This document shows positions 24,229 through 27,200 of a stretch of DNA of 64,000 nucleotides, piece after piece. Numbering within the stretch: the stretch's first letter is position 1; each line of letters starts with the position of its first letter. The DNA lies in NCBI GenBank assembly GCA_035221665.1, contig CM069156.1, positions 28,768,001 to 28,832,000 of the forward strand. The letters run 5' to 3'. The position numbers were made by a program. This DNA is from Okamejei kenojei. Lineage: Eukaryota.

Positions 24229-27200
24229 GGCTGGGAGGAGGGGGGGGGGGGGGGGTGGCGGCAAGAAGTGCTGATCAATGGCTGTACCTAGAACCACTGA
24301 GGATATTTGTCCCCAGGTCCATGTCAAAATTCACTTGTGGAACCACATGGGAGCAGCACAAAACTAACATTTGATGGGAATTTGGTGCTACAATTTGAAA
24401 GTATCCTTGTAAATTGCATTTATTCTTGCCTTACAAATGTGGCCAAAGTCCATTTCAATGCATGGACTATTAGATACACAGCACGTGGGGCAGATTCCAT
24501 TATAAAATCTTCAGTGTCTTGTACTTGTCGCACAATTTACTATAATTAGCTTAATCCTCCGAGACATGAATGTTTGCATTTTAATATTCTCACATTTAAA
24601 CTTTGCTTTGGGGTTTTACACTAGAATGTGAAAAAGAGTCCAGTTTCAAGACAGAGGTTGGGAACCAGTCACCATATGGTCACCTACAATCTCCTACCAG
24701 TGACTATTAGGACACTGGGGGTCCTCACTGAACTACTTCAATAGCTCTGCTTGAAAAGGAGTAGCAGTGGATATAGTGGAATTTTAAAAAGCAGTGTAAG
24801 ATGGGAAGGAAACATTGCATGCAGAGTTCCTGTGTCTCCAGAACTAAAATGGAAAATGAGTCAACTTTCACCTTTTTCTTTATTTCATCAACCTGCAAGG
24901 AAATTCAGAGGGTAGCGGCTTAGAATCCAAACTCCGTCCAGCACATAAAGCAGAAGGGAAAAAAGCAAAAATAGCAAAAAGAACAACTCACAATGAAAGA
25001 TAAAAAGGAAGACAGGGGGAGAAAGAGAAAACAGTAAAGAGGAGCATTTTAGTGTACCACAAACATCAGAAGGACACCAACTGTACAGATGAATACCGGC
25101 AGAATAAAACTGATCTGGCCAGATGTGATTGAATAGAATATCAATACAATTGAAAGTTAGAGCAAAATCTGCAATGTCATGACTTCACCATAGAGGATGA
25201 CATTGACCAATCTGGAACTCTAAACTAACCATTTCCCTTGCCATCTAACATCCAGTTCATACACTAAAGCAGCATGGGGTATTAAGTACTAATTTGCTTA
25301 ACTTGGAACAGAAATTATATAGTTCAACATACTATGTAGGAAAATTAGTGATTTAGTCCCAAGGCAGTTAATTCTGCAAAAGGCCAATTGTATTGTGGTT
25401 GTGACCTACAAAATGTGGTGTAAAATACACCACGTAGTTAAATGAACTGGTTTCCAAACCCACTTTTATCATACCATTCATCTGCATGCAAAATAAAACG
25501 GCTTACAAGTATAGCAAAATCTTAAGACAGCAAGGATCAAATTCTGCACAGGAATGCAAGGTTGCTAAAGTAACTGTGGGAAGGATATAAGAACTGGATA
25601 AAATGCTGTGGTGGCTGACAATTCCAGCAGCACACCAGAAAATACTATTCAAATTTACACTGCTCAAAGTTCAGCAAAATCAACGCAGAGTATCAACTCT
25701 ATACCAAGGTTGAGATGATTTACATTTGGTAGTAGCCAAACAATGCTTGAGGCAGCCCACAATATTATCCTCCCCATTGGATAAACTAAAGGGTATAGGT
25801 TAGGTCCCCAGCTTGAAAGATTTTAATTTGTACCAACTAAATACAGCTGTATATTCAGAATTCACAAGAAATCTGGTTAAGTCAATATATACAAACAAAG
25901 TTCGAAACAAATTGAGCACACCTGAATGGCAAGTAGGAAGAATAATGGAACTTTGTAGCAAACCTTGGGTCCTGGTAGCTTGCTCCATGAGCCAACATTA
26001 CTGGTCAGTTGTTGAATGTACCAAGTGGGTGTCCACGGTAACCATGGTCAAATAGCACTCACTGACAGCACCGTTGCAACATTGGGACTAGTCTAATGAT
26101 AACCAGCTCAAATAGTTGAACAACAACTTTGCAGCAAAGGGGAAAATAGAGGGGACAGAATTTAAATTATACAAACCTTCACTGCAATCAAAGAAACAAA
26201 TCCTTGGAAGTTAGTGGATTTTTCTAGCCAAAACAAATTTATATTATGCTAAAATTAAGCACTTCAATTAAAGACCTGTAATTAACCCCAGCTTCAGGGA
26301 GAATCAGACTTTTCCATTAGTTAACAAATAACTTGCAATATTTGGCGCAAGGGCCAATCATCTGTTGCTGCTCCACGTCTAGCCTGTCCGATGGAAATTG
26401 GCTGCCAGCCAATCTTCCTAAACTTGCCTTCAGCACAGGGAATGAAAACAGGACGAGATAGCAGTGCTCAAATGCGGCACAAATCACAGGCTCAATTGAC
26501 ACTGCTTTTATTCAGCTGGCTGGCTTTGCCAATATATCAGCACCGAAGTCTCATAAACAAAATCTCGGCAATTTTACATCATGTCCCAGTCATTTAGGAG
26601 TGACTTACCAGTTAAATCGTGCCACCAGATAGTATCTATGATGAAGCTATTTGATTCATTTTATAATGTAATGCCCAACACAATCTGTGATCAGGCCACT
26701 CATCCTTCAGGTCAGTTTACTGATCACTTACCTTTGAGAGATATTCCCTCATCACCTGGATAAAGTACGGCATGGAGAAATCCATGATGTTGTGCCTCCA
26801 GGATAGCTCGAGTACAACATCTGGCCTCAGCAGGTCATAACACGTGAAGAGACAGGAAGCAAAGCACTCATTCTTTCCATCTTCCAGGAACCATTGCAGC
26901 AGCTCCTCGGCCAGTTCCGTATCCTTCGACTCCGATGCATATTGCATAGCATCCTGAAACAGAGCAAAGCCGGTCTTTGATTTGAAGAAGTAAGGCATAT
27001 ACATGACAACGCCAATGTACATGGACTGGTTTCCAAAGTCATCCAACATCCAAATACCTGCAAGATCTGTAAACGTTAACATCCAGCAATTTGTACAATG
27101 AGTATGATACCCACTCCTACAGAAAGCAAAGCCAATAGGCTAGTTTTCACGAATAGGATATTGCTCATGTACATTCTTGTCAGAGCCGACTGGCTTCTGA

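What the first reader, a model, noticed from the sequence alone, without database searches (positions are those of the whole stretch)
24872..24892. 21-nt CLTC microexon (VDEIKKK): the muscle clathrin-plaque switch exon appears to exist in a cartilaginous fish
Seen: an in-frame 21-nt AG/GT-bounded exon inside the 7.7-kb gap between exon 30 and the VDKLD exon, invisible to the ORF track. Established: mammalian CLTC has a 7-aa muscle-enriched exon 31 (VDAIKEK as I recall) in the trimerisation-region helix, linked to the switch from coated pits to flat plaques and mis-spliced in myotonic dystrophy. Inference: the switch predates the shark/bony-fish split. The peptide resembles the start of the next exon (VDKLD), and seven residues is one heptad of helix.
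Basis: partly seen in the sequence, partly recalled or inferred. Interest (0 to 1): 0.75.

Follow-up and report, generated by a model that had tools for sequence, protein, structure and literature searches.

The report
Shark copy of clathrin's muscle microexon
The 21-base stretch is the shark counterpart of a known optional mini-exon that adds one helical turn-pair to the clathrin heavy chain; it is real but ordinary, because public gene models of other sharks and of lamprey already contain it.

Summary
Window 24892..24872 (minus strand) is a 21-nt, phase-0, AG/GT-bounded segment coding VDEIKKK. It lies in the 7,702-nt intron between the CLTC exon ending ...REYLSK and the exon starting VDKLD. 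It is not chance: it is 1 of 17 stop-free AG-21nt-GT candidates in that intron, and the only one resembling the published mammalian peptide VDAIKEK (5/7). It is also the only such 7-mer among 89,336 in the window, and 0 of 2,000 shuffles reach 5/7. Its acceptor is the best-scoring AG in the intron. The host gene is the elasmobranch CLTC orthologue, with PTRH2 next door; the window is not human. The same peptide, VDEIKKK, at the same junction is already present in NCBI isoform X1 models of two sharks (Heptranchias perlo, Mustelus asterias). Lamprey has VDEMKAK, and sauropsid CLTCL1 has VDGLFYK/VDGLFNK. The likely mechanism, taken from mammalian work, is one extra heptad (V at position 1, I at position 4) in the trimerisation helix that stabilises the trimer and favours flat lattices. 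Inclusion, tissue pattern and function in sharks are untested. Low novelty.

The parts
24872..24892 (-). 21-nt alternative microexon, orthologue of CLTC exon 31; codes VDEIKKK, phase 0 at both ends
   Evidence: Sequence and translation. Unique match to known peptides. Identical peptide at the same junction in shark RefSeq isoforms P0359 and P0358. A short-word tblastn with the Mustelus segment hits 24892..24869 at 8/8 residues.
24893..24912 (-). 3' splice site: AG at 24894..24893 preceded by a polypyrimidine tract (ccctctgaatttccttgcag)
   Evidence: Best-scoring acceptor of 435 AGs in the intron under a weight matrix from 19 acceptors of the same gene. The 20 nt before the AG are 75% pyrimidine.
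24895..25044 (-). Extended pyrimidine-rich stretch upstream of the acceptor; a candidate PTB-type repressor platform (inferred)
   Evidence: The 150 nt before the AG are 76% pyrimidine against an intron mean of 53%. For the 100-nt measure, 247 of 7,603 intron windows are as rich. YTCTYY occurs 5 times in the upstream 300 nt against 1.25 expected. PTBP1 represses the mouse exon through upstream motifs (PMC8925968 passages).
24866..24871 (-). 5' splice site, intronic part GTGAAA (exon side AAG); weaker than most constitutive donors of the gene
   Evidence: Score 6.99; 5 of 516 intronic GTs reach it; leave-one-out constitutive range 3.9 to 13.0.
24818..24823 (-). TGCATG (RBFOX-type motif) starting 49 nt into the downstream intron; a candidate enhancer of inclusion in muscle and brain (inferred)
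   Evidence: One of only 4 TGCATG in the 7,702-nt intron. By itself it is roughly a 1-in-20 coincidence.
26732..26953 (-). Upstream constitutive exon (mammalian exon 30 equivalent), 74 codons, ends ...[13 protein letters not shown]
   Evidence: Aligns to residues 1536-1609 of solved clathrin heavy chains (3qil, 1xi4, 6sct, 6wcj). Its C-terminal 53 residues are identical to the matching stretch printed for P0359.
18954..19029 (-). Downstream constitutive exon (exon 32 equivalent), starts VDKLDVSES, ends in phase 1 with donor GTTAGT
   Evidence: 26/26 residues identical to P0359.
18418..18539 (-). Last coding exon with the QLMLT motif and stop codon TAA (18420..18418)
18418..62962 (-). CLTC gene body held by the window (residue 84 to the stop; the first exons lie beyond 64000)
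   Evidence: 28 tblastn segments in order on the minus strand. About 97% identity to four chondrichthyan CLTC references, 93.2% to bat CLTC and 89.7% to bird CLTCL1.
4355..4867 (+). Neighbouring gene PTRH2 (peptidyl-tRNA hydrolase 2), single open reading frame of 170 aa, tail-to-tail with CLTC
   Evidence: Pfam PF01981, E = 1.2e-47. The best named relatives are all chondrichthyans.

Best explanation
Window 24892..24872 (minus strand) is the elasmobranch orthologue of CLTC alternative microexon 31.

Shown here: it sits at the same exon-exon junction as the mammalian exon. It has the same length and phase and good splice sites, and it codes VDEIKKK. That peptide shares V1, D2, I4, K5 and K7 with mammalian VDAIKEK.

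Inferred from relatives: it is spliced in as an optional exon, because shark and ray gene models exist both with and without it.

Inferred from mammalian experiments: when included it adds exactly one heptad to the long C-terminal 'tripod' helix of the clathrin heavy chain. V at position 1 and I at position 4 would face the three-helix core. The trimer becomes more stable and assembly shifts from curved coated pits towards flat plaques, mainly in striated muscle.

Inclusion is probably set by a weak donor, a long pyrimidine tract upstream (repression) and a TGCATG 49 nt downstream (activation). The exon is ancestral to living vertebrates, not a shark novelty.
For: Anatomy and chance: (details under the observation check).

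Host gene:
- 28 ordered CLTC segments on the minus strand.
- 96.99-97.47% identity to CLTC of Heptranchias, Carcharodon/Cetorhinus, Hypanus/Hemitrygon and Mustelus, against 93.19% for bat CLTC and 89.7% for bird CLTCL1.
- PTRH2 lies next door. CLTC and PTRH2 also carry adjacent locus tags in sturgeon (FKN15_037344/037343) and bonefish (JZ751_022458/022459).

Orthology of the exon:
- P0359 (H. perlo isoform X1, 1681 aa) reads ...REYLSK-VDEIKKK-VDKLDVSES.
- P0358 (M. asterias X1) also contains VDEIKKK.
- 1674-aa models lacking it exist for Cetorhinus and Hemitrygon (named isoform X2) and, as the same sequences, for Carcharodon and Hypanus.

Wider distribution: of 309 stored clathrin-type proteins, 242 have a readable junction; 185 have no insert and 31 have VDAIKEK (mammals, birds, a turtle, teleosts). 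Two have VDEMKAK (lamprey), 11 have VDGLFYK or VDGLFNK (sauropsid CLTCL1), and single cases have VEAVKEK, VDFVMEK and VDEFAAK.

Heptad pattern: across 9 distinct 7-residue variants, position 1 is V in 9/9, position 4 is I/L/V/M/F in 9/9 and position 7 is K in 9/9.

Mechanism in mammals:
- V1610 and I1613 of the insert point into the trimer core in AlphaFold-Multimer models, and the VDAIKEK hub resists detergent better (preprint passages).
- Inclusion tracks and promotes plaques (PMC7480091 passages).

Local model: with a 34-row alignment, the C-terminal 162 residues of P0359 give one unbroken helix, 73-114, running through the insert at 91-97.

Regulatory hints.
Against: - The two shark isoform X1 proteins are computed NCBI models, and I could not see their transcript support.
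- The donor is in the lower part of the gene's range, with mismatches at +5 and +6.
- Regulators reported for the mouse exon are only partly echoed. There is no ACTAAY (QKI) within 300 nt on either side (0 of the intron's 7) and no GU-rich CELF-type motif (0 of 76).
- The TGCATG alone is about a 5% coincidence.
- The structural model is a monomer. Confidence is only about 69 (pLDDT) over residues 91-100 and 59 over 101-110. The single-sequence model was poor, with mean pLDDT 54.
- Two of seven residues differ from the mammalian peptide (A3E, E6K). This changes the charge pattern on the outside of the helix, so partner binding could differ.
- Muscle enrichment and an effect on plaques in elasmobranchs are pure extrapolation.
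Confidence: 0.85

Rival explanations
1. It is a chance AG...GT open segment in a long intron, with no biological meaning.
For: Such segments are common. There are 30 AG-21nt-GT segments in the intron, 17 of them stop-free, and 248 stop-free candidates of 9-51 nt.
Against: It is the only one resembling the known peptide and 1 of 89,336 7-mers in the window; 0 of 2,000 shuffles reach it. It has the best acceptor of 435. The identical peptide sits at the identical junction in two other sharks.
Confidence: 0.01
2. It is a conserved relic or a differently used exon. The sequence is kept, but in this species it is never spliced in, or it is included in every transcript, so there is no switch.
For: There are no expression data here. 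The donor is weak. Some regulators known from mouse have no motif nearby.
Against: Both splice sites and the frame are intact. 7/7 residues are identical in three elasmobranch lineages, although the exon lies inside a 7.7-kb intron. Models with and without the exon coexist among chondrichthyans.
Confidence: 0.07
3. It is a real alternative exon, but its role in elasmobranchs differs from the mammalian muscle-plaque role. It could, for example, be mainly neural, or it could tune binding of partners to the outside of the tripod helix rather than lattice shape.
For: The mouse exon is also used in brain to a small degree (PMC13676984 passages). TGCATG motifs serve both neurons and muscle. The solvent-facing positions 3 and 6 differ from mammals (E and K instead of A and E) and vary most across lineages. 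Moulay et al. themselves do not exclude altered adaptor binding.
Against: The core-facing residues V1 and I4, the ones tied to trimer stability in mammals, are unchanged. No data point to a different tissue.
Confidence: 0.2

Closest known systems
Mammalian CLTC (CHC17) alternative microexon 31, peptide VDAIKEK
   Same: Same gene and same junction (after ...EYL[ST]K, before VDKLD). Same 21 nt and phase 0. 5 of 7 residues are identical, including V1 and I4, the two residues that face the trimer core in the mammalian model.
   Different: Positions 3 (E for A) and 6 (K for E) differ. Tissue pattern, regulators and effect on plaques are untested in sharks. The QKI and CELF-type motifs reported or implied for mouse were not found within 300 nt.
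NCBI model isoforms X1 of shark CLTC: Heptranchias perlo XP_067864580.1 (P0359) and Mustelus asterias XP_078080761.1 (P0358)
   Same: Identical peptide VDEIKKK at the identical junction. The printed flanks of P0359, the last 53 residues of the upstream exon and the whole downstream exon, are identical to the window's.
   Different: The species differ: PTRH2 of the window is 82% identical to H. perlo. The Mustelus model carries 16 further residues before VDEIKKK that have no counterpart in the window.
Sea lamprey clathrin heavy chain isoforms with VDEMKAK (P0113, P0114; UniRef A0AAJ7SRN8, A0AAJ7SR69)
   Same: Same junction and same length. V1, D2, E3, K5 and K7 are shared with the shark peptide. 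An isoform without the insert also exists (P0112).
   Different: M instead of I at position 4 and A instead of K at position 6. Lamprey has a single heavy-chain gene according to PMC6548504 (passages).
CLTCL1 (CHC22) of birds and reptiles with VDGLFYK or VDGLFNK
   Same: A 7-residue insert at the same junction, starting VD, with a hydrophobic residue at position 4 and ending in K.
   Different: This is the paralogous gene. The middle residues are unlike (G-L-F-Y/N). No such insert appears among the named mammalian CLTCL1 proteins seen. I found no paper describing it.
Rodent Cltc microexon 33 (38 nt) / CHC17-SAS
   Same: Another muscle-regulated microexon in the same C-terminal region of the same gene.
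   Different: It lies one intron further downstream, shifts the frame and truncates the C-terminus, and is confined to mouse and rat. The exon studied here keeps the frame and is ancient.

Membership tests
CLTC exon-31-type alternative microexon | Lies between the exon ending ...EYL(S/T)K and the exon starting VDKL(D/E) in the trimerisation domain | tested here: met
   The upstream exon maps to residues 1536-1609 of solved clathrin heavy chains.
CLTC exon-31-type alternative microexon | 21 nt, phase 0 to phase 0, no stop | tested here: met
CLTC exon-31-type alternative microexon | Peptide of the V-D-x-hydrophobic-x-x-K type (VDAIKEK in mammals) | tested here: met
   VDEIKKK, 5/7 identical to VDAIKEK and to lamprey VDEMKAK. 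V1, hydrophobic position 4 and K7 hold in 9 of 9 variants.
CLTC exon-31-type alternative microexon | Functional AG acceptor and GT donor | tested here: met
   The acceptor ranks 1 of 435 and the donor is within the top 5 of 516 under a same-gene weight matrix. These are sequence scores only, not splicing data.
CLTC exon-31-type alternative microexon | Optional use: transcripts with and without the exon | tested here: inconclusive
   Chondrichthyan models exist with it (P0359, P0358) and without it (P0347, P0348). These are other species and computed models. There are no reads for the window's species.
CLTC exon-31-type alternative microexon | Inclusion enriched in striated muscle and rising during development | not testable with these tools
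   No expression data. Only hints: TGCATG at +49 and an upstream pyrimidine tract.
CLTC exon-31-type alternative microexon | Inclusion stabilises the trimer and favours flat plaques | not testable with these tools
   Known for mammals only. Here there is only a monomer model showing an unbroken helix through the insert.
CLTC (CHC17) orthologue rather than CLTCL1 (CHC22) | Closer in sequence to CLTC than to CLTCL1 over all exons | tested here: met
   93.19% identity to bat CLTC against 89.7% to bird CLTCL1, and about 97% to four chondrichthyan proteins named clathrin heavy chain 1. No tree was built.
CLTC (CHC17) orthologue rather than CLTCL1 (CHC22) | Conserved neighbourhood with PTRH2 | tested here: met
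   PTRH2 at 4355..4867. CLTC and PTRH2 carry adjacent locus tags in sturgeon and bonefish. The human arrangement is recalled, not checked.

The most novel reading that the evidence does not exclude
The optional heptad is a vertebrate-stem invention that predates the CLTC/CLTCL1 gene duplication. It is present in the single heavy-chain gene of lamprey. It is present in CLTC of sharks, teleosts, reptiles, birds and mammals. It is also present in CLTCL1 of birds and reptiles and in a divergent CLTCL1-like teleost gene. It is unseen in 31 named invertebrate proteins and in the named mammalian CLTCL1 proteins examined. If so, tuning clathrin trimer stability by one spliced-in heptad is over 450 million years old, both paralogues inherited it, and mammalian CHC22 lost it. 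I found none of this stated in the searchable literature.
Probability: 0.6. Interest if true: 0.4.

Novelty: already known. Interest (0 to 1): 0.18.

Why it matters
It is not a new object: the exon is described in mammals and already modelled in sharks and lamprey.

The modest scientific value lies in the comparative picture. The residues that face the trimer core (V1 and the hydrophobic position 4) and the closing K7 are fixed over the whole of vertebrate history, while the outward-facing positions drift. This fits the published idea that the exon works by lengthening the tripod coiled coil. The paralogue CLTCL1 of birds and reptiles carries a sister exon that the clathrin literature I could search does not mention.

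Tried and rejected
- Standard tblastn with full-length CLTC proteins skips the 7 codons. Only a short-word search with the Mustelus segment finds them.
- None of my three word-index protein searches lists a protein named for a chondrichthyan clathrin (one search queried PTRH2). At 90% clustering they sit inside a teleost-led cluster, and they surfaced only through the listing of cluster members, which reads 40 of 1,123 members. More shark isoforms surely exist unseen.
- Regulator motifs: there is no ACTAAY and no GU-rich CELF-type motif within 300 nt. YGCY is about twofold enriched upstream, 8 against 3.8, but I draw nothing from that.
- Origin of the exon by duplication of the start of the next exon: 9 of 21 nt are identical, so there is no support.
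- The 16 extra residues of the Mustelus model have no convincing match in the window.
- The 3-nt retinal CLTC microexon described in PMC9303857: no AG-GAN-GT candidate lies in the 1,038 nt of the window upstream of the exon starting at 62962. The rest of that intron is outside the window.
- The single-sequence structure prediction was too poor to use.
The intron therefore could not be aligned across chondrichthyans or to lamprey, and conservation of the flanking intron stayed unchecked.
- Supplements are closed. Figure S2 of PMC13676984, the alignment of microexon 31 across species, could not be seen and may already show fish.
All searches with window sequence were exon by exon, and the 7-residue exon is too short for any search tool. 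Comparisons used database proteins as they stand.
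Full report
**1. What is there**

On the minus strand the window reads ...ccctctgaatttccttgcag|GTTGATGAAATAAAGAAAAAG|gtgaaagttg.... The 21 nt at 24892..24872 translate to VDEIKKK.
- The exon upstream, 26953..26732, has 74 codons and ends ...[14 protein letters not shown] followed by gtaagt.
- The exon downstream starts at 19029 with VDKLDVSESLRKEEEQATETTPIVY after ttttag.
- Both junctions are phase 0, so the 21 nt fit in frame.
- The intron they lie in is 7,702 nt. 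The window contains no N.

**2. Is it more than chance?**

Bounds and openness alone are not enough. The intron has 30 AG-21nt-GT segments, 17 of them stop-free, and 248 stop-free AG..GT segments of 9-51 nt in steps of three.

The peptide is what decides.
- The mouse and human exon codes VDAIKEK (PMC13676984, passages; preprint 10.64898/2026.08.20.745084, passages). Lamprey isoforms carry VDEMKAK.
- Of the 17 candidates, only this one has more than 2 of 7 identities to either peptide; it has 5 of 7 to each.
- Among 89,336 stop-free 7-mers in all six frames of the window it is the only one at 5 of 7 or better; 26 reach 4.
- In 2,000 shuffles of the intron no candidate reached 5 of 7, and 10 shuffles reached 4.

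Splice sites were scored with a weight matrix made from the gene's own sites. I solved 18 of 27 adjacent exon pairs (4 had no solution and 5 were skipped because the alignment had gaps). To these I added the donor at 26732 and the acceptor at 19029.
- The microexon's acceptor is the single best of 435 AGs in the intron.
- Its donor (AAG|GTGAAA) is reached by 5 of 516 GTs, itself included. It is stronger than only 4 of 19 constitutive donors.
- A strong acceptor with a modest donor is what one expects of a regulated small exon (my inference).

**3. The host gene and organism**

Full-length clathrin heavy chains align to 28 ordered segments on the minus strand from 62962 to 18421, residue 84 to the end.
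- On clean segments, identity is 96.99-97.47% to four chondrichthyan proteins named clathrin heavy chain 1 (Heptranchias perlo; Carcharodon/Cetorhinus; Hypanus/Hemitrygon; Mustelus asterias).
- Identity is 93.19% to bat CLTC and 89.7% to bird CLTCL1. The gene is therefore CLTC, not the paralogue.
- At 4355..4867 on the plus strand lies a single 170-codon open reading frame for PTRH2 (Pfam PF01981, E = 1.2e-47).
- Its 12 best named relatives are all chondrichthyans: rays and sharks at 81-86% and Callorhinchus at 77%. Ray-finned fishes follow at 75% or less.
- The best hit overall (96%) is an unnamed record that I did not pursue.
- CLTC and PTRH2 also carry neighbouring locus tags in a sturgeon and a bonefish assembly.
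- The window is thus from an elasmobranch whose species I did not determine. It is not human.

**4. Relatives of the exon**

Searches with window sequence used the upstream exon alone. The 7-residue exon is too short to search with, so I read the junction in database proteins as they stand.
- Cluster members listed include H. perlo isoform X1 (P0359, XP_067864580.1, 1681 aa). It reads ...REYLSK-VDEIKKK-VDKLDVSES..., identical to the window over the last 53 residues of the upstream exon, the insert and the downstream exon.
- They also include M. asterias isoform X1 (P0358, XP_078080761.1), which contains VDEIKKK after 16 further residues.
- 1674-aa proteins without the insert come from Cetorhinus/Carcharodon (P0347) and Hemitrygon/Hypanus (P0348).
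Of the other 67, 58 run on into intron or stop, and 9 lack the junction or are unrelated cluster members.
- Among the 242, 185 have no insert and 31 have VDAIKEK (mammals, birds, a turtle, many teleosts).
- Smaller groups among the 242: 7 have VDGLFYK and 4 VDGLFNK (CLTCL1 of birds, turtles, a gecko, a cobra), and 2 have VDEMKAK (lamprey).
- A further 2 of the 242 contain VDEIKKK (the two sharks).
- Single cases have VEAVKEK, VDFVMEK, VDEFAAK and 9-residue forms such as VDELARQVK. The rest are evident mis-predictions (names).
- A Komodo dragon fragment has VDTIKEK.
- These counts include unnamed records. All conclusions rest on named ones.
- All 31 named invertebrate representatives go straight from K to VDKL/VDRL: molluscs, annelids, a nemertean, a brachiopod, a centipede, echinoderms, hemichordates and amphioxus.
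- This absence is weak evidence, because only cluster representatives were seen.

**5. Age**

PMC6548504 (passages) reports one heavy-chain gene in lamprey and hagfish, and CLTCL1 only in jawed vertebrates. An insert of the same length, at the same junction, beginning VD and ending K occurs in lamprey, in CLTC and in CLTCL1. It is most simply explained by a single origin before that duplication.

**6. How it most likely works**

Shown elsewhere for mammals:
- Inclusion rises in developing striated muscle and goes with plaques. Forced skipping lowers plaques and muscle force, and inclusion is reduced in congenital myotonic dystrophy (PMC7480091, passages).
- In trimer models, V1610 and I1613 of the insert point into the core, and the VDAIKEK hub resists detergent dissociation better (preprint, passages).
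- CELF1 represses the exon (cited). PTBP1 represses it and QKI promotes it (PMC8925968, passages).

Shown here:
- The shark peptide keeps V1 and I4.
- Across 9 distinct 7-residue variants, position 1 is V in 9/9, position 4 is hydrophobic in 9/9 and position 7 is K in 9/9. Positions 3, 5 and 6 vary.
- A monomer model of the last 162 residues of the H. perlo protein, built with a 34-row alignment, gives one unbroken helix, 73-114, through the insert at 91-97. Confidence is moderate to low there (pLDDT about 69, then 59).

Inferred: the exon adds one in-register heptad to the tripod helix and strengthens the trimer, with the mammalian consequences for lattice shape.

Regulatory hints in the window:
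- 76% pyrimidines in the 150 nt before the acceptor's AG.
- Five YTCTYY upstream against 1.25 expected.
- One of the intron's four TGCATG, 49 nt downstream.
- Against a simple copy of the mouse scheme: no ACTAAY and no GU-rich motif within 300 nt.

**7. What is not shown**

There are no transcript data for any shark. The shark and lamprey isoforms are computed models whose support I could not inspect. The flanking intron could not be compared with other genomes, because no eukaryotic DNA collection was available. Figure S2 of PMC13676984 could not be read and may bear on how far the published conservation reaches. Its main text states full nucleotide identity from mouse to chicken.

**8. Novelty**

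The three papers that hold the exon's names do not mention shark, lamprey or zebrafish. A search combining CLTC, microexon and those taxa found nothing on this exon.

The fact itself is nevertheless in public protein records for two sharks and the lamprey. I rate it as already known, with low interest. The one point that may be worth a note to clathrin specialists is the sister exon in non-mammalian CLTCL1 and the implied stem-vertebrate origin.

Noticed in passing
window 4355..4867 (+): PTRH2, a complete 170-codon single-exon open reading frame, tail-to-tail with CLTC. Its nearest named relatives (77-86%) are all cartilaginous fishes, which places the window in an elasmobranch.
   Followed up: partly
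database proteins P0067, P0416, P0418, P0426-P0429 (VDGLFYK) and P0241, P0420, P0421, P0423 (VDGLFNK); not in the window: The paralogue CLTCL1 of birds and reptiles has its own 7-residue insert at the same junction. Named mammalian CLTCL1 proteins seen have none. I found no paper mentioning this.
   Followed up: partly
database protein P0358 (Mustelus asterias isoform X1), residues 1610-1625: This model has 16 extra residues directly before VDEIKKK. No counterpart exists in the window, so it may be a second small exon or a model artefact in that species.
   Followed up: partly
window 62963..64000 (-), and database proteins P0112, P0114, P0082, P0005: Lamprey, salmon and lungfish proteins carry one extra E or D after ...VIALK. 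This fits the 3-nt retina microexon of CLTC described in PMC9303857. No AG-GAN-GT candidate lies in the 1,038 nt of this intron held by the window, and the four chondrichthyan proteins seen lack the residue.
   Followed up: partly
window 18948..18954 (-): The VDKLD exon ends in phase 1 with an unusual donor, G|GTTAGT. The Gly codon is completed by the first two bases of the last exon at 18539.
   Followed up: yes
window 18559..18580: A run of 21 C on the minus strand (G on the plus strand) sits in the last CLTC intron, just upstream of the final acceptor.
   Followed up: no
window 16111..16711 (+): Two adjacent open reading frames look like remains of a transposase-type gene. There is one weak Pfam match to DUF659 (E = 0.0037, below the curated cut-off).
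   Followed up: partly
window 1..2000: This is the most G+C-rich part of the window (54%), with strongly negative GC skew and proline-rich artefactual reading frames. It could be a CpG-rich promoter region or a simple repeat; I did not examine it.
   Followed up: no
cluster of P0095; not in the window: Four catfish and characiform VMP1 proteins are listed as members of a clathrin heavy-chain cluster. This is probably a clustering artefact through a fused gene model.
   Followed up: no
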